Part shown: positions 46,485-57,470 of the stretch, in pieces
How the letters are laid out: each line of letters starts with the position of its first letter
Position numbering within the stretch: the first letter of the stretch is position 1
From: a virus
DNA: 64,000 nt
Virus record (IMG/VR): IMGVR_UViG_3300025140_000080
Coordinates: 7,378-71,377 of that record
Reading direction: 5' to 3' (one strand)
The notes under the pieces: generated by a model
The model's input: only the letters and a program-made list of their open reading frames with translations
What the model was told of the DNA's origin: nothing
The model's database searches: none
Translations under genes and position numbers: made by a program

Positions 46485-46526
46485 GCGATTAATTTTGGCG
46501 ATGGAAACTCTATTTTAACCTCGGAA

Positions 46527-47084
46527 CTACTCATTTTTAGAGTCTTTAACGTCAGGGTATTCAATGTTAAAATGATCGCACATTGTATTTAAAATTTTTC
46601 TTATATTTTGTATGTCGTCCCTGTACAATCTACGGTCTTTTTTTAAATATTGCACAGTGCTCAACGTATCACTTTTCTTAAAATACTCATTAGATGGCGT
46701 TATCGTTTTTTCAACGATGCTAAATTTCTCTCTGTCATAAACTTTACCATTTGACGATATGTGTAAGGATGGCGAAGACTCTTTATATATTGGGAGATTT
46801 CTCATTGATTTTAATTCACGTTTATCATCATTTGGCAAAATTAGTTTGTAAAGCACTGGTTTTTTATCGATACCCTCAAACTCTTGAGCGATTGGTAATA
46901 CATTATCCTTATTGATTGTCACACTCTGACAGCCAATATTAACGAGAAATGTTTTACCTTTTAATTCAATTATAACGTTCTCGTATTGAACCTTATAATT
47001 AGGCTGAATAACGTATTCATTTTCGTTTTCTTTGTTTAACGACGTTCTAAAGTCGATGATCTTAATTTCAGTATTTTTTAACAT
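46527..47084 (-). CDS. hypothetical protein
   Basis: Directly behind early motif 47111-47140. Confidence 0.65.
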   Translation of the reverse strand: MLKNTEIKIIDFRTSLNKENENEYVIQPNYKVQYENVIIELKGKTFLVNIGCQSVTINKDNVLPIAQEFEGIDKKPVLYKLILPNDDKRELKSMRNLPIYKESSPSLHISSNGKVYDREKFSIVEKTITPSNEYFKKSDTLSTVQYLKKDRRLYRDDIQNIRKILNTMCDHFNIEYPDVKDSKNE

Positions 47085-47110
47085 TTCAATAAATTTAAAT
47101 TGTTTCTATA

Positions 47111-47140
47111 TTATACGTAACTCGATAAAAAAGGTTACAA
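47111..47140 (-). promoter_or_regulatory. early-type motif
   Basis: Exact match. Confidence 0.75.
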
Positions 47141-47175
47141 AAAAGGTCAACATATTTTGAGTATGTTGACCTTTT
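47139..47175 (-). terminator. terminator closing the RNA array
   Basis: AAAAGGTCAACATA/TATGTTGACCTTTT with U tract on - strand. Confidence 0.85.
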
Positions 47176-47184
47176 ATATTCAAA

Positions 47185-47268
47185 AAAAACAAAGAACAGT
47201 TAAGACAGAGTTTTTTGTATAAAAATTTCGATTTTTTTGATGAAACTGTCTCGAACACTATTGTTTTT
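47185..47268 (-). ncRNA. Y-RNA-like hairpin unit 5
   Basis: Outer stem AAAAACAA/UUGUUUUU, bulged U, AG/CU pairs, UGUUC loop, inner stem AGACAG/CUGUCU. Confidence 0.65.
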
Positions 47269-47270
47269 CG

Positions 47271-47394
47271 TAGGGCATGATGGACTCGAACCACCGACCT
47301 CGTCATTAAGAATGAAGTAACTTTTACGAACGCCACAATAAAGGGAAAAGGTGTAAAAGAGAATTTCGCGCTCTACCAACTGAGCTAACGCCCT
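47271..47394 (-). tRNA. tRNA-Lys(CUU) interrupted by a 51-nt Y-like insertion at position 28/29 (insert 47316-47366); no encoded CCA
   Basis: Acceptor AGGGCGU/AUGCCCU; D arm GCUC-AGUUGGUA-GAGC; T arm GGUGG-UUCGAGU-CCAUC; deleting the insert gives CGUCA-UUCUUAA-UGACG and a 73-nt cloverleaf. Confidence 0.85.
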
Positions 47395-47401
47395 ATAATA
47401 T

Positions 47402-47517
47402 AGATGAATAAGGAAAATGAGAGACAGAGTTTTGTATTTACTTAATTATTGAGATTGAGTTGATCTTAATTATTGAGATTGAGTTGATGAAACTGTTTCT
47501 AACGCCATTATTCATTT
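47402..47517 (-). ncRNA. Y-RNA-like hairpin unit 4 (loop expanded by 24-nt duplication)
   Basis: Outer AUGAAUAA/UUAUUCAU, bulged U, GG/CC, inner AGAAACAG/CUGUCUCU. Confidence 0.6.
47441..47488. repeat. perfect 24-nt tandem duplication CTTAATTATTGAGATTGAGTTGAT x2
   Basis: Direct inspection. Confidence 0.95.
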
Positions 47518-47518
47518 G

Positions 47519-47584
47519 TCGGTGTGCGAGGGGACGATCCTCATATAATACCGTATACTGCATTACAAGCCAAGACACACTCCG
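47519..47584 (-). ncRNA. degenerate D-arm-less tRNA-like element
   Basis: Acceptor CGGAGUG/CACACCG (6/7), T-like arm UGAGG-AUCGUCC-CCUCG, central hairpin UAAUGC/GUAUUA. Confidence 0.4.
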
Positions 47585-47591
47585 ATATAAA

Positions 47592-47661
47592 TAGATAAGG
47601 AAAAAGATAATACGGTGAATATTTCGTAAAAGGAAGTAACCGTATCGAACGCCATTATCTA
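47592..47661 (-). ncRNA. Y-RNA-like hairpin unit 2
   Basis: Outer UAGAUAA/UUAUCUA, bulged U, GG/CC, CGUUC loop, inner AUACGGU/ACCGUAU, UACUUC...GAAAU. Confidence 0.7.
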
Positions 47662-47670
47662 AATTTTTGT

Positions 47671-47740
47671 AAGCAAAGAACTGATGGTAGGGTGTGATTT
47701 CATTTATGGAGGAAGTAACCCTTACCGAACGCTATTACTT
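47671..47740 (-). ncRNA. Y-RNA-like hairpin unit 1
   Basis: Outer AAGUAA/UUGCUU, bulged U, AG/CU, CGUUC loop, inner GGUA(A)GGGU/ACCCUACC, UACUUC...GAAAU. Confidence 0.7.
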
Positions 47741-47750
47741 AATATTTTTA

Positions 47751-47798
47751 CAAAGGTACTATTTAATATTTAATTTGCAAGTATAAATAGTACCTTTG
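47751..47798 (-). promoter_or_regulatory. Bacteroidota-type promoter for the RNA array inside a perfect 15-bp inverted repeat
   Basis: - strand TTG(47780-78)-N19-TACCTTTG(47758-51); IR CAAAGGTACTATTTA-N18-TAAATAGTACCTTTG. Confidence 0.7.
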
Positions 47799-47802
47799 TT
47801 GA

Positions 47803-49236
47803 TTAATTTTCACTCTGGTCGTCAAATTTATTTGTTAGACCTTCGTTTGCAGCGATATATGTTAGGAAGTTTTCAGACATACCTGTAATTTCGGCATCCC
47901 ATACATTCCTAAAGTTAACGCCTCTCTCATTTGACGATACGTCGCAAATATAGTTATATTTGCCGTAAGGTGCTGGAATTCTCGCATTCATAAGATCGCA
48001 ATCCTGTGAGTCAGAGAATATGATAATTCTGTCGAATGTATCAGATACGTTGGCTTTACACCATTCGATACACTGTCTGGTGAAAATACCACCACAGCCG
48101 ATTTCACTTCCAGCACTTTGAATTTGCTTGAACACATCGAATCCCTTTTTTGGATTTAGAATATGCTTATGAGCACCTTTATGCGAACCATCATTCCCAG
48201 CAGTTGCTACGATTTCATAGTTTTCACATTGATTAATCGCAAGCATAGCCATTGCACAAGCAGCATCCATTCTGGACATTCCCGACTTGTCAGATAATTT
48301 AGCACCCATTGAGCCTGAAATATCGACAATGAATAATGTCTTTCCAGATAATTTAGGAAGATTCTTATAAGACTCAACCATAGCATCCTCAATATCTCTC
48401 GAATACTCAGGTGCAAACCTTGAGGCTGTTAAGAAATTGAAAGGCAATAACATCGAACTATTTAGATTTTTCAATCCCTTTCTAATGCTATTCGAGTTAA
48501 CACCCGACTGAACCATATTACGTACATTGCGCAACATTGCCAAACCACCGATTTTCTTTTCATCGATCAATCTCTCCCATGTGGCTTTCTTATCTTTACC
48601 TGTCGATAAAGCAACTTCCCATGTATCAGGAGTTTTCAAAGTACGATCAGCAACTTTCTTGTAAAGTTCAATCTTTTCCTGTGAAGATGGTTTTGGGTGA
48701 GCTAAAAACATAGCATCCCTTAACTTGATCTCGGCATCCCTGTCATATTTAGCGAATTGGTATTCGTTAAAGTTATCGAATGCTTTCGCCAAACCTTTCT
48801 TAGCAGCAGCAGCCAAAGGCTTTAGCTTACCGCCATTCTGTTTCTTGTAGATAGCAAGAAAGTCTGTAATCATGTCTGCTCTTGTGATAATCTTTGGTAA
48901 GATATCGGCAACCAACGCAGAATATCCAACGTGTTTCAGCATTTCAACACAAATAAACAAAGGAGTATGACGCAATTTCTGCTCAAGTCTCGCCTCAACA
49001 GCAAGATCAGCAACATCTTGAGGATTACATTGCGGAATCAACTGGCTGATCTGTGTTGAAACATCTTCACCGTTAGCATACGCAATGTTTTCCCATAATA
49101 GGTTCGCTAAAACAACTCTACGTAATAGAGCTAATTCGTCTTGTTTAGCTGCTCTGGTTCCAAATCCACCAGCAAGTCTTTCATCTGATTTTAAATCAGA
49201 AACGCCACTTTTTAAAATAGGGTTCAATTTACTCAT
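47803..49236 (-). CDS. rsr: Ro60/TROVE-vWA RNA-binding protein
   Basis: EARLEQKLRHTP, RADMITDFL, YQFAKYDRD, LKTPDTWE, MLRNVRN, vWA IVDISGSM...FSD. Confidence 0.92.
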   Translation of the reverse strand: MSKLNPILKSGVSDLKSDERLAGGFGTRAAKQDELALLRRVVLANLLWENIAYANGEDVSTQISQLIPQCNPQDVADLAVEARLEQKLRHTPLFICVEMLKHVGYSALVADILPKIITRADMITDFLAIYKKQNGGKLKPLAAAAKKGLAKAFDNFNEYQFAKYDRDAEIKLRDAMFLAHPKPSSQEKIELYKKVADRTLKTPDTWEVALSTGKDKKATWERLIDEKKIGGLAMLRNVRNMVQSGVNSNSIRKGLKNLNSSMLLPFNFLTASRFAPEYSRDIEDAMVESYKNLPKLSGKTLFIVDISGSMGAKLSDKSGMSRMDAACAMAMLAINQCENYEIVATAGNDGSHKGAHKHILNPKKGFDVFKQIQSAGSEIGCGGIFTRQCIEWCKANVSDTFDRIIIFSDSQDCDLMNARIPAPYGKYNYICDVSSNERGVNFRNVWDAEITGMSENFLTYIAANEGLTNKFDDQSEN

Positions 49237-56144: not shown

Positions 56145-57470
56145 TTACTGATTTTTCTTCGAACGTCTTGGAGCGGCTGTTGAATCCTTAATATTCAAAA
56201 TAGGTTTTACCCTATGAAGAATTGTTGCGGTATCTTGAATCGCTTCTTCGATCATTTTAGAATCTTTGTAGGCAAAAACCGATTCATCAATAGTCGAATT
56301 ACATACTGATGTTGAATAGATTCCTTTCATTGATTCTTCAACCATTTCAAGAGTGATCAATTCCTTAGCTTTCGATCTTGAATAGAGTCTACCTGCTCCG
56401 TGTGGCGCAGAGTTATTCCAGTCAGGATTTGATTTACCTTCGCAGATAAGCATACCATCCTTTTGATTAAAAGGAATAATCATTTTTTGACCCACATATG
56501 ATGAAATAGAGCCTTTTCTGATGATGAAGTCATGAAAGTCGACATAGTTATGCACTGATGAAATAACTTCGTCAAAAGCCTTCACTTTCAAAATCTTTTG
56601 GATTATATCAAGTATAGTCTGACGATTCCATTCAGCATATTTTTGAGCAAAGATCATATCAAACAAATATCCTACGGACAATTCATCTGAAAGGTAATCA
56701 CGATCAATACCCTTTTTATATTTCTCTCTTAATTCCTTCATCAACTGAGGTATTGTTGATCTATCCACAGTATTCTTAACCAAAGCATCGAATTCCGCAA
56801 GATATTCAGGTGAGGTATCATTTGACTGTGTTTTAGCTTGGTTCAGCCAGTACTCACATACCTTAACACCTAAGTTTCTTGAACCACAGTGAACTGTAAT
56901 CCAGTTATCCTTTGACTCTTCGTCATACCCAAGTTCAATGAAGTGATTACCACCACCTAAAGTTCCGATTGACTTGAATAACTTCTCAGCATCCATACCA
57001 ATAGTCTTTAGCTTAGTTTTCAGCCATTTCTCATTGTAAGAAGGCGCAACATAAGAAGTACCAAACTTTTCATTATACTTTTCAGCAAATTTGTTCGCTA
57101 ATTCCTGTACTTCGGCATATGGAATCTTTTTCGACTTAGCACCCTCATGAACATTAAATCCCATAGGAACTAATTTCTTGATCTTTTCATCGATCATGGC
57201 TAAGTCTAATACGCCATTTGCTTTAAATCTGCCTGACAGCATTCCGCAGCCAATATCAACGCCACACCAGTTCGGATTCAAATACTGACCCAATTCCATA
57301 GTGAAACCGATACAGATACCTTTACCAATATGGGCATCTGGCATAATACGAACCTTTAAGCCTTTGGATACATATGAGTTAATGATTGGGTAGATTTGCT
57401 CGAATAAACCGTCCTCATAATTATCTAAATATAAAATAGCATCTGTGTGCTTTCCTTTTAAATCAAACAT
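56145..57470 (-). CDS. rtcB: RNA 2',3'-cyclic-phosphate/3'-phosphate:5'-OH ligase RtcB
   Basis: MPDAH.G, GVDIGCGM, GTLGGGNHFIE, HCGSRN.G, HNY, RKG, HGAGR..SR, AYKD. Confidence 0.95.
   Translation of the reverse strand: MFDLKGKHTDAILYLDNYEDGLFEQIYPIINSYVSKGLKVRIMPDAHIGKGICIGFTMELGQYLNPNWCGVDIGCGMLSGRFKANGVLDLAMIDEKIKKLVPMGFNVHEGAKSKKIPYAEVQELANKFAEKYNEKFGTSYVAPSYNEKWLKTKLKTIGMDAEKLFKSIGTLGGGNHFIELGYDEESKDNWITVHCGSRNLGVKVCEYWLNQAKTQSNDTSPEYLAEFDALVKNTVDRSTIPQLMKELREKYKKGIDRDYLSDELSVGYLFDMIFAQKYAEWNRQTILDIIQKILKVKAFDEVISSVHNYVDFHDFIIRKGSISSYVGQKMIIPFNQKDGMLICEGKSNPDWNNSAPHGAGRLYSRSKAKELITLEMVEESMKGIYSTSVCNSTIDESVFAYKDSKMIEEAIQDTATILHRVKPILNIKDSTAAPRRSKKNQ

What the first reader, a model, noticed from the sequence alone, without database searches (positions are those of the whole stretch)
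47271..47394. tRNA-Lys(CUU) carrying a circularly permuted Y-like hairpin inserted at position 28/29
Seen in sequence (- strand): acceptor, D and T arms are canonical. Deleting exactly 51 nt (47366-47316) restores a perfect anticodon arm, CGUCA-UU-CUU-AA-UGACG, and a 73-nt tRNA-Lys without CCA. The junction cannot slide. The insert is a permuted copy of the neighbouring free hairpins, with the same UG-GCGUUC, GG/CC pair, inner stem (GUAAAAG/CUUUUAC) and UUACU|UC and G|AAAU ends; here the open end is closed by a small loop and the tRNA occupies the distal loop. Established: bacterial YrlA Y RNAs join a Ro-binding stem to a tRNA-mimic domain, with ends in the Ro stem and no functional anticodon arm; RtcB joins 2',3'-cyclic phosphate to 5'-OH ends. 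Inference, two models: (a) a new five-armed Y RNA/tRNA chimera tethering Ro60 to a full tRNA body, or (b) a Ro-bound, non-BHB tRNA intron that keeps a reserve tRNA-Lys hidden from anticodon nucleases until it is excised and ligated by the phage RtcB, then CCA-tailed by the phage enzyme.
Basis: partly seen in the sequence, partly recalled or inferred. Interest (0 to 1): 0.92.

Follow-up and report, generated by a model that had tools for sequence, protein, structure and literature searches.

The report
Phage Y RNA shaped like tRNA
This is a real small RNA of a crAss-like phage: a complete tRNA look-alike carrying the docking hairpin for the phage's Ro60 protein as a side branch on its anticodon stem, so it is a rearranged version of the known bacterial YrlA Y RNAs and probably not a tRNA with an intron.

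Summary
At 47271-47394 (- strand) Rfam's tRNA model scores 42.6 bits across a gap in the anticodon arm. Removing exactly 47316-47366 gives a 73-nt tRNA-Lys(CUU) call.

The 51 nt are not peculiar to this genome. The same module (bulged U, GG/CC pairs, GGCG-type motif, 7-bp inner stem, UUACU) branches between tRNA positions 28 and 29 in RNAs beside Ro60 genes of many phages.

- 18 distinct RNAs have the window's layout: ends at the acceptor stem, module closed by a small loop.
- 43 have the reverse layout: ends in the module, acceptor closed by a loop. Several of these hit Rfam YrlA below threshold.

Both sets covary strongly (95-96% paired; 0 of 500 shuffles reach this).

So the element is a circularly permuted YrlA-type Y RNA. 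[quoted passage not shown] - the module is the terminal stem in the reverse-layout relatives;
- the 'anticodon' drifts (CUU versus CCU in the nearest relative; others unphysiological);
- the genome has no splicing endonuclease;
- RNA-seq contigs of a crAss001-like phage carry the module unspliced.

Ro60 binding and the RNA's ends are inferred. This scan saw the same RNA before on other DNA (e1-3458873, e1-3488866).

The parts
47271..47394 (-). Whole tRNA-shaped Y RNA (124 nt): a cloverleaf with the Ro60-docking module branching from the anticodon stem
   Evidence: Rfam tRNA 42.6 bits. My model R1 scores 135.8 bits. Covariation in 18 same-layout relatives.
47388..47394 (-). Acceptor stem, 5' strand (AGGGCGU). 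It pairs with 47272-47278.
   Evidence: Sequence. Acceptor helix 97.6% paired, and all 7 pairs change on both sides among relatives.
47370..47385 (-). D arm GCUC-AGUUGGUA-GAGC, with G18 G19
   Evidence: Helix 100% paired.
47367..47368 (-). tRNA positions 27-28 (CG). They pair with 42-43 (47301-47302) and form the outer two pairs of the split anticodon stem.
   Evidence: 94% paired with CG, AU, GC and UA types in the window's layout. 100% paired with five pair types in the reverse layout.
47316..47366 (-). The 51-nt Y (Ro60-docking) module. It comprises the junction strand AAAUUCU (47360-47366), inner stem 3' strand CUUUUAC (47353-47359), ACCUUUU-CC (47344-47352), closing C-G pair with 6-nt loop (47336-47343), bulged U (47335), GG (47333-47334), CGUUC (47328-47332), inner stem 5' strand GUAAAAG (47321-47327) and junction strand UUACU (47316-47320).
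   Evidence: Inner stem 96% paired and GG/CC 97% paired, both with compensatory changes. Same module in the reverse-layout relatives and in the free hairpins.
47303..47315 (-). Anticodon-like hairpin UCA-UUCUUAA-UGA (positions 29-41; loop with U33, CUU, A37, A38)
   Evidence: The same 3-bp stem plus 7-nt loop is found in 26 of 43 reverse-layout and 7 of 18 same-layout relatives, with loop consensus C-U-NNN-R-A.
47279..47300 (-). Variable loop AGGUC and T arm GGUGG-UUCGAGU-CCAUC
   Evidence: T helix 100% paired.
47271..47278 (-). Acceptor stem 3' strand AUGCCCU plus discriminator A. No CCA is encoded (CGA follows).
47803..49236 (-). Ro60 (TROVE plus vWA) gene, the presumed protein partner. Its stop lies 409 nt upstream of the RNA on the same strand.
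   Evidence: Pfam TROVE, E = 1.6e-16. Orthologues in crAss001 and relatives.
47185..47740 (-). The surrounding array of free Y hairpins with the same module: 47671-47740, 47592-47661, 47402-47517 and 47185-47268
   Evidence: Folds show outer stem, bulged U, GG/CC, internal loop and inner stem.
56187..57353 (-). RtcB RNA ligase gene (context only; no evidence that it acts on this RNA)
   Evidence: Pfam RtcB, 190 bits, at G000:C1:63564-64730.

Best explanation
The element is a non-coding Y RNA of the phage's Ro60 system, a circular permutation of the YrlA type. Its body is a full tRNA cloverleaf with all the nucleotides needed for the L-shape. The Ro60-docking hairpin (bulged U, GG/CC pairs, GGCG-type motif, internal loop, 7-bp stem) is a fifth arm. 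It leaves the 5' strand of the anticodon stem between positions 28 and 29 through conserved junction strands (AAAUNNN and UUACU). The remaining 3 bp and a 7-nt loop complete an anticodon-arm mimic.

Inferred mechanism: Ro60 binds the module as it binds YrlA and other Y RNAs. The tRNA-shaped part then presents Ro60 to, or competes for, tRNA-binding enzymes. Because its ends lie at the acceptor stem, the RNA is probably cut out of the Ro60/Y-RNA transcript by RNase P and a 3' tRNA-processing enzyme, and may be CCA-tailed by the phage enzyme. The module stays in the mature RNA and is not an intron.

Shown here: the structure, its conservation and covariation, its kinship to YrlA-like RNAs and its linkage to Ro60. 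Inferred: Ro60 binding, the RNA's ends, and its function.
For: 1. Position: 409 nt downstream of a TROVE/Ro60 gene on the same strand, inside an array of hairpins with the same module.

2. Same-layout relatives: 18 distinct full-length RNAs next to Ro60 genes of other phages, crAss001, cr112_1 and cr106_1 among them. 95.7% of pair cells are paired against 70.9% in shuffles, 25 of 30 pairs change on both sides, 0 of 500 shuffles reach this, and slid controls give 37-48%.

3. Reverse-layout relatives: 43 RNAs with the same parts in rotated order. The order is module 5' strand, UUACU, anticodon hairpin, 42-43, V, T, acceptor closed by a loop, D, 27-28, AAAAUNU, module 3' strand. 95.2% are paired against 64.5% in shuffles, and the 27-28/42-43 helix is 100% paired.

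4. Several reverse-layout RNAs match Rfam YrlA (RF02553) over the whole model below the gathering score of 69 bits: 41.2, 35.4 and 33.6 bits, E = 5e-6 to 8e-4. The best match, 49.8 bits with E = 1.6e-8, is a hairpin-less unit in the same arrays.

5. Many relatives carry the published YrlA Ro60 motif GNCGAA(N)G literally, for example GGCGAAG. The window has GGCGUUCG on the equivalent strand.

6. The 'anticodon' varies freely while the loop shape is kept: U33 in 24 of 26, purine at 37 in 26 of 26, A38 in 26 of 26. It includes triplets that do not fit bacterial tRNA identity, such as AUU and Ser-GCU with a 4-5-nt variable loop.

7. M. smegmatis YrlA is cleaved by RNase P and CCA-tailed in vivo (PMC4201824). 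[quoted passage not shown]
Against: - No Ro60-binding or transcript-end data exist for this phage; its sequence was found only in glacier metagenome DNA runs.
- The window RNA does not hit Rfam YrlA at all, and its candidate Ro motif has UU where YrlA has AA.
- The perfect restoration of a canonical tRNA-Lys, the conserved U33/A37 loop and the phage's RtcB and CCA enzyme would also fit a processed tRNA.
- The covariation counts were made on alignments fitted to my own models, which favours the modelled structure. The slid controls argue against a large bias.
Confidence: 0.78

Rival explanations
1. Intron model. The 51 nt are a protein-dependent intron. It is cut out at G28|A and U|U29, the exons are joined by the phage RtcB, and the product is CCA-tailed to give a working tRNA-Lys(CUU) held in reserve against anticodon nucleases.
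For: - Exact deletion gives a canonical 73-nt tRNA-Lys.
- The 2+3 bp split stem and 7-nt loop with U33/A37 are conserved.
- RtcB and a CCA-type enzyme are encoded.
- ARAGORN in its default mode finds no ordinary tRNA in the 95.8-kb record.
Against: - The same module at the same 28/29 position is the terminal stem of 43 relatives whose acceptor is closed by a loop. Excision there cannot yield a tRNA.
- The anticodon differs in the closest relative, CCU at 86% Ro60 identity, on the same tRNA body.
- Relatives include Ser-GCU with a short variable loop and AUU.
- Only 7 of 18 same-layout RNAs have a hairpin that exactly fits; the crAss001 group has none.
- The module is far too short for a group I intron and gave no intron match in Rfam. 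No BHB motif is visible, and no splicing endonuclease domain is in the genome.
- RNA-seq contigs of a crAss001-like phage carry the module in place.
Confidence: 0.06
2. A decoding tRNA with an extra arm. The unspliced 124-nt RNA is itself charged with lysine and used in translation.
For: Acceptor, D, T and anticodon loop are canonical, and the discriminator A73 and U35 fit lysine identity (established identity rules, recalled from memory and not tested here).
Against: - A 51-nt helix projecting from the anticodon stem is hard to fit into ribosomal sites (inference).
- The anticodon drifts among relatives without matching identity changes.
- The reverse-layout relatives have no free acceptor end.
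Confidence: 0.03
3. A dead tRNA gene. A repeated Y hairpin was copied into a tRNA-Lys gene, and the product has no function of its own.
For: The insert is a permuted copy of neighbouring hairpins.
Against: - The arrangement is kept across Ro60 lineages that share only 38-86% protein identity.
- Every helix shows compensatory changes, and the junction strands are conserved.
- The same layout is needed at least five times on the Ro60 tree.
Confidence: 0.04

Closest known systems
YrlA (Y RNA-like A; Rfam RF02553; Chen et al. 2014, PMC4201824; structure in Wang et al. 2018, bioRxiv 10.1101/312249)
   Same: - Encoded next to Ro60 on the same strand.
- A Ro60-docking stem with a GNCG-type motif on the strand that leads into the variable loop and T arm.
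- A tRNA-like domain with canonical D and T arms and elbow nucleotides.
- Phage members were already reported.
- Relatives of the window RNA in the reverse layout match RF02553 over its full length at 33.6-41.2 bits, and a hairpin-less unit in the same arrays at 49.8 bits.
   Different: - Gene order is that of a normal tRNA (D before T), with an open acceptor stem; the docking stem is closed by a 6-nt loop. YrlA is the other way round.
- It keeps a complete anticodon stem-loop, whereas published YrlA 'lacks the anticodon loop' and 'lacks a free CCA end'. This makes a three-way junction at 28/29.
- Its motif reads GGCGUUCG rather than GNCGAA(N)G.
- It has no RF02553 match.
[quoted passage not shown] 2014)
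   Same: In that organism the acceptor-like stem is opened by RNase P and CCA-tailed in vivo. This gives a tRNA-ended, Ro-bound RNA. The window RNA would reach a similar end state.
   Different: There the open acceptor results from cutting a closed loop and leaves two base-paired pieces. Here the gene itself is in tRNA order and the RNA stays in one piece.
D. radiodurans Yrn1
   Same: A Y RNA modelled with a tRNA-like part that includes an 'anticodon arm' with a 5-bp stem.
   Different: Yrn1's ends are in the Ro stem at the acceptor position, its loop has 6 nt, and it lacks a clear D arm. The authors judged that it arose independently.
Intron-containing tRNA genes (bacterial group I introns; archaeal BHB introns)
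   Same: An insertion whose precise removal restores a canonical tRNA.
   Different: - The module is only 51 nt long, far too short for a group I intron.
- It sits in the stem at 28/29.
- There is no BHB motif and no endonuclease gene.
- The 'intron' is a conserved protein-docking hairpin that is terminal in related RNAs.
Thermus phage phiLo Ro60 with Yrl1/Yrl2 (PMC12135203) and Bas63 gp130 (bioRxiv 10.1101/2024.10.10.617714)
   Same: - Phage Ro60 or Ro60-like proteins with adjacent candidate Y RNAs.
- phiLo Ro60 binds its Yrl RNAs and host PNPase in vitro.
- Bas63 gp130 counters the ppl defence system.
   Different: The text read here describes no tRNA-ordered, anticodon-bearing Y RNA for those systems.

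Membership tests
YrlA (RF02553) | Encoded within about 4 kb of a Ro60/TROVE gene on the same strand | tested here: met
   The Ro60 gene is at 47803-49236 (-) and the RNA at 47271-47394 (-).
YrlA (RF02553) | tRNA-like domain with conserved D and T arms and elbow nucleotides | tested here: met
   Rfam tRNA 42.6 bits. G18 G19, U54 U55 C56, U8, A14 and G15/C48 are present.
YrlA (RF02553) | GNCGAA(N0-1)G motif on the strand of the Ro stem that leads into V and T | tested here: inconclusive
   The window has GGCGUUCG on the equivalent strand, with UU in place of AA. Relatives have GGCGAAG, GGUGAAG or GGCGUAG.
YrlA (RF02553) | Permuted order (T arm before D arm), acceptor closed by a loop, RNA ends in the Ro stem | tested here: not met
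   The order is acceptor, D, module, anticodon hairpin, T, acceptor. The acceptor is open and the Ro module is closed by a 6-nt loop. My reverse-layout model R2 matches only partly, at 40.4 bits.
YrlA (RF02553) | No anticodon loop | tested here: not met
   A 3-bp hairpin with the 7-nt loop UUCUUAA completes a 5-bp anticodon stem.
YrlA (RF02553) | Score at or above Rfam's gathering cut-off (69 bits) | tested here: not met
   No match at E up to 10 in 46500-48500, and none in the whole 95.8-kb record.
YrlA (RF02553) | Bound by Ro60/Rsr | not testable with these tools
   Needs EMSA or RIP.
tRNA (RF00005) | Cloverleaf scoring above the gathering cut-off | tested here: met
   42.6 bits against 29.
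tRNA (RF00005) | Uninterrupted anticodon arm; recognised by a tRNA finder | tested here: not met
   ARAGORN finds nothing in the native sequence. It calls tRNA-Lys(CUU) only after the 51-nt deletion.
tRNA (RF00005) | Anticodon kept with matching identity elements among orthologues | tested here: not met
   CUU here and CCU in the closest relative on the same body. AUU, and GCU with a short variable loop, occur elsewhere.
tRNA intron (group I or BHB) | Group I ribozyme core, or a bulge-helix-bulge at the junctions together with a splicing endonuclease | tested here: not met
   The 51 nt give no intron match in Rfam. No tRNA_int_endo domain is in the genome. I saw no BHB in the sequence.

The most novel reading that the evidence does not exclude
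The tRNA-ended Y RNA is an active counter-defence device. Ro60 holds a full tRNA mimic whose exposed anticodon loop (kept as C-U-NNN-R-A, triplet free to vary) serves as bait or competitive inhibitor for host tRNA-cleaving defence nucleases. The phage RtcB and CCA-type enzyme would restore it or the real tRNAs. Hughes et al. 2020 proposed competitive inhibition of an anticodon nuclease for Salmonella YrlA, which has no anticodon loop. A mimic with a loop would be a stronger version.
Probability: 0.15. Interest if true: 0.85.

Novelty: new variant of a known kind. Interest (0 to 1): 0.62.

Why it matters
Ro60 and its Y RNAs are conserved from bacteria to humans, yet the function of the tRNA-like YrlA domain is still unknown. 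This RNA, and the family found around it, bear on that question in four ways.

- Phage YrlA relatives often keep a whole anticodon-arm mimic, not just the tRNA elbow.
- The family exists in two circular permutations, which changed into each other at least five times on the Ro60 tree. Tandem arrays make such a register shift easy. The window's layout is the tRNA-with-a-Ro-handle form that the published 'dimeric tRNA' model for the origin of YrlA would predict as a precursor.
- crAss-like phages are among the most abundant viruses of the human gut. They carry these unannotated RNAs next to an early-expressed Ro60 gene, and a cultured model (crAss001) is available.
- The link to RtcB and CCA-adding enzymes repeats the bacterial rsr-yrlBA-rtcBA repair operon in a phage. 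This gives a tractable system for asking what Ro60/Y RNPs do to tRNAs.

Tried and rejected
- ARAGORN in intron mode calls the native sequence tRNA-Ser(ACU) with a 42-nt intron at position 33. This is a forced fit that ignores the perfect CUU arm, so I rejected it.
- The minimum-free-energy fold of the 124 nt is no better than shuffles (z = -0.45). It mispairs the anticodon region and is not informative, as is usual for tRNAs.
- Rfam at permissive thresholds gave only chance-level microRNA and sRNA matches around the array, and no Y_RNA or YrlA match in the window.
- MAFFT alignments of the relatives mis-registered the inner stem and the hairpin. I therefore used model-guided alignments and a separate parse of the hairpin. 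The hairpin helix in alignment A8 scores low (58%) because of a one-column register fault inherited from the seed, not because the hairpin is absent.
- Sequencing runs: the window's own sequence is held only by glacier metagenome DNA runs, so splicing could not be tested on this phage. Laying RNA-seq contigs on a crAss001-like locus showed presence but no ends. Contigs cannot show ends or rare forms, and DNA carry-over cannot be excluded.
- The simple promoter/terminator scan found no terminator and one weak promoter-like site. The obvious hairpin plus U-run at about 47140-47176 is seen by eye only.
- Two Y RNA reviews (PMC6047535, PMC10870794) are not held, so I could not check whether the tRNA-ordered layout is mentioned there.
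- Codon counts (AAA 1049, AAG 524) say nothing either way.

Full report
**1. What is in the sequence**

Read on the - strand, 47394-47271 is a tRNA cloverleaf with an interrupted anticodon stem.

- Acceptor stem AGGGCGU/AUGCCCU.
- U8 A9, then D arm GCUC-AGUUGGUA-GAGC, then G26.
- C27 G28, then 51 nt (47366-47316).
- UCA-UUCUUAA-UGA-CG.
- Variable loop AGGUC, T arm GGUGG-UUCGAGU-CCAUC, discriminator A.
- No CCA is encoded.

Rfam's tRNA model matches these exact ends at 42.6 bits (gathering score 29). It leaves a 64-nt gap in the anticodon region, and this is the only Rfam match above threshold in the 64-kb window.

ARAGORN finds no tRNA in the window. After deletion of 47316-47366 it calls a 73-nt tRNA-Lys(CUU). 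The bases at the two junctions differ, so the deletion has one register only.

**2. Context**

The window comes from a crAss-like phage.

- The 477-aa protein encoded at 47803-49236 (- strand) has a TROVE domain (E = 1.6e-16) and a weaker Ro60-type vWA match (22.9 bits, just under Pfam's 27.7-bit cut-off).
- Its nearest DNA matches in the phage collection are the TROVE genes of Bacteroides phage crAss001 and its relatives.
- The 718-nt non-coding stretch downstream holds four hairpins and the tRNA-shaped element.
- All five share one module, in this order: outer stem, bulged U, GG paired to CC, a GGCG-type motif in an internal loop, a 7-bp inner stem, and the strand (G)UUACUUC.
- In the tRNA-shaped element the same parts occur in rotated order. 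The outer stem is reduced to one C-G pair around a 6-nt loop, and the tRNA occupies the place of the apical loop.
- The 95.8-kb genome record also encodes RtcB and a CCA-type nucleotidyltransferase. It has no tRNA-splicing endonuclease domain. ARAGORN in its default mode finds no ordinary tRNA in it.

**3. Relatives with the same layout**

Downstream of the Ro60 genes of crAss001 and cr112_1, Rfam's tRNA model again finds cloverleaves with 72-82-nt gaps in the anticodon region (46.6 and 50.2 bits). None is annotated in those records.

I fetched 91 further Ro60 loci from IMG/VR and built a covariance model, R1, from five such RNAs. R1 finds 18 distinct full-length members at 55-137 bits; the window scores 135.8 bits.

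On their alignment:

| Measure | Value |
|---|---|
| Pair cells forming standard pairs | 95.7% |
| Same, in shuffles | 70.9% |
| Pairs that change on both sides | 25 of 30 |
| Shuffles reaching the observed values | 0 of 500 |
| Pairing with partners slid by 1-3 columns | 37-48% |

Three helices bear directly on the finding. The two outer anticodon-stem pairs 27-28/42-43 are 94% paired, the inner stem 96% and the GG/CC pairs 97%, all three with compensatory changes. The alignment was fitted to the model, which leans towards it. The slid controls limit that concern.

**4. Relatives with the opposite layout, and the link to YrlA**

In many other Ro60 loci the same parts are arranged the other way round: outer stem 5' strand, U, GG, YG(U/A)AG, inner stem 5' strand, UUACU, hairpin, positions 42-43, variable loop, T arm, acceptor closed by a short loop, UA, D arm, 26, 27-28, AAAAUNU, inner stem 3' strand, CGCUUGUUCC, outer stem 3' strand.

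This is the gene order published for YrlA: Ro stem, V, T, acceptor stem-loop, D, Ro stem (PMC4201824).

- A second model, R2, finds 43 full-length members in 38 loci.
- 95.2% of pair cells are paired against 64.5% in shuffles.
- The 27-28/42-43 helix is 100% paired, with five pair types.
- Several of these RNAs match Rfam YrlA (RF02553) over the whole model, below its 69-bit cut-off: 41.2, 35.4 and 33.6 bits, E = 5e-6 to 8e-4.
- The best match (49.8 bits, E = 1.6e-8) is a hairpin-less unit in the same arrays.
- Many carry the published Ro60 motif GNCGAA(N)G literally, for example GGCGAAG. The window has GGCGUUCG on the equivalent strand.
- The anticodon-stem sequence CG+UCA/UGACG of the window recurs unchanged in several opposite-layout RNAs.

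The window RNA is therefore a circular permutation of phage YrlA-like RNAs. It does not itself hit RF02553.

**5. The anticodon arm**

Published YrlA 'lacks the anticodon loop', and its anticodon-like stem runs straight into the Ro module (bioRxiv 10.1101/312249; Rfam consensus).

In the phage family, the stretch between UUACU and position 42 is exactly a 3-4-bp stem plus a 7-nt loop in 26 of 43 opposite-layout RNAs and 7 of 18 same-layout RNAs. Loop composition in the 26 opposite-layout RNAs:

| Loop position | Base | Count |
|---|---|---|
| 32 | C | 20 of 26 |
| 33 | U | 24 of 26 |
| 37 | purine | 26 of 26 |
| 38 | A | 26 of 26 |

Together with 27-28/42-43 this is a standard 5-bp anticodon arm. 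Chen et al. mention a 'less-conserved fourth stem-loop upstream of T', which they called V. That may be this hairpin. I could not see their figures.

The triplet itself is free.

- It is CUU in the window and CCU in the closest relative (86% Ro60 identity, same tRNA body).
- Elsewhere it is GUU, GCU, UUU, UCU, AUU, UGG, GUG, CGU and others.
- GCU occurs with 4-5-nt variable loops, and AUU does not fit bacterial decoding (established tRNA identity rules, from knowledge).

The shape of the loop is under selection; a decoding function is not.

The rest of the family has no such hairpin. This includes the crAss001 group and a class with an 11-nt UCAUNGGAACU strand.

**6. Intron or handle?**

The intron/RtcB model predicts a module that exists in order to be removed. 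The evidence points the other way.

- The module is the terminal stem of the opposite-layout RNAs, so excision there cannot make a tRNA.
- It is the whole of the neighbouring free hairpins.
- It carries the motif known to mark Ro60 binding.
- It is far too short for a group I intron, has no BHB motif, and the genome has no endonuclease gene.

I could not test splicing on this phage. Its sequence is found only in glacier metagenome DNA runs.

For a crAss001-like locus, RNA-seq libraries most likely from crAss001 infections (run names are coded) yield contigs that carry the homologous element with its module in place (L018 4114-4241). The only joint seen is a replaced, divergent stretch outside the element. 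Contigs cannot show rare forms or ends, so this is weak evidence.

The crAss001 TROVE gene is reported as early-transcribed (PMC8375218).

**7. How it most likely works**

Shown here: the structure, its conservation, its kinship to YrlA-like RNAs, and its linkage to Ro60.

Inferred from established Ro60/Y RNA biology:

- Ro60 binds the module.
- The tRNA-shaped part engages tRNA-binding proteins.
- With its ends at a 7-bp acceptor stem, the RNA is probably released from the Ro60/Y transcript by RNase P and a 3' tRNA-processing enzyme, and may be CCA-tailed. This happens to M. smegmatis YrlA after RNase P opens its acceptor loop.
- Pairing of Ro60 and Y RNAs with RtcB repeats the Salmonella rsr-yrlBA-rtcBA operon. 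For that operon, competitive inhibition of an anticodon nuclease by the tRNA-like domain has been proposed (PMC7790460).
- A Ro60-like protein of phage Bas63 is reported to counter the ppl defence system (bioRxiv 10.1101/2024.10.10.617714).

A bait role for the anticodon mimic is attractive but untested.

**8. Evolution**

On a quick Ro60 tree (SH-aLRT support, midpoint root, careful search unfinished), the two layouts need at least five changes.

- The crAss-like clade mostly has the window's layout.
- That layout also appears in four other places on the tree.
- In tandem arrays the two layouts are register shifts of each other. R1 scores mid-range across adjacent opposite-layout units, and L063 shows inner stems that could pair either way.
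- This fits, and gives a concrete form to, the published idea that YrlA arose from dimeric tRNA transcripts.

**9. Novelty and verdict**

Y RNAs next to phage Ro60 genes are known: 22 phages in Chen et al. 2014, and Thermus phage phiLo (PMC12135203).

A tRNA-ordered Y RNA with an open acceptor and an anticodon arm is not described in the papers I could read, and full-text searches found no such description. Two reviews were not available.

Agents of this scan reached the same reading on other DNA that shares the same sequence words (e1-3458873, e1-3488866).

I rate it a new variant of a known kind and a solid structural finding.

Noticed in passing
outside the window: G000:C1:91299-91390 and 91462-91595 (- strand): Two more tRNA-like genes with canonical acceptor, D and T arms but expanded anticodon regions (92 and 134 nt). 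ARAGORN finds them only in intron mode. They lack the UGGCG...UUACU module, and one has a CGAUAAG/CUUAUCG stem.
   Followed up: partly
window 47519-47584 (-): A 66-nt mini tRNA-like unit, with an acceptor-like GUGUGU/GCACAC stem and a T-like hairpin GAGG-AUCGUCC-CCUC. It lies between free hairpins 2 and 4 and is conserved with changes in L004.
   Followed up: no
window about 47425-47480 (-): The apical loop of the fourth hairpin holds a 24-nt stretch (CAACUCAAUCUCAAUAAUUAAG plus 2 nt) repeated twice in tandem. The closest relative, L004, has an unrelated loop there.
   Followed up: no
L002 555-644 (cr112_1, NC_055881.1 67800-67890): An annotated tRNA-Ile carries a 23-nt insertion in the anticodon loop (Rfam tRNA 56.9 bits). 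This is another interrupted tRNA in a crAss-like phage, unrelated to the Y module.
   Followed up: no
L093, L059, L057, L053, L030, L072, L075 and others (junction after UUACU): A second class of family members has no anticodon hairpin. Instead it has an 11-12-nt strand, UCAUNGGAACU. Its GGAAC is complementary to the conserved GUUCC of the module's 3' strand, so a pseudoknot or an alternative pairing is possible.
   Followed up: no
L003 1-205; L006 2093-2617; L008 6022-6329; L063 1630-1702: tmRNA genes lie within a few kb of the Ro60 gene in several of these phages.
   Followed up: no
L001 4225-4363, L002 4819-4956, L018 4341-4479, L023 4335-4472: The crAss001 group has a second, more degenerate tRNA-ended Y RNA just downstream of the first. 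It has acceptor GGGGAUG/CAUCCCC, a T arm, the module with UAGUG and GAGUUACUUC, and a poor D arm; R1 scores 33-38 bits.
   Followed up: partly
window 47138-47178: A 10-bp hairpin GGUCAACAUA/UAUGUUGACC, flanked by A-runs and U-runs on both strands, ends the RNA array. It looks like a two-way terminator, but the simple terminator scan did not flag it.
   Followed up: no
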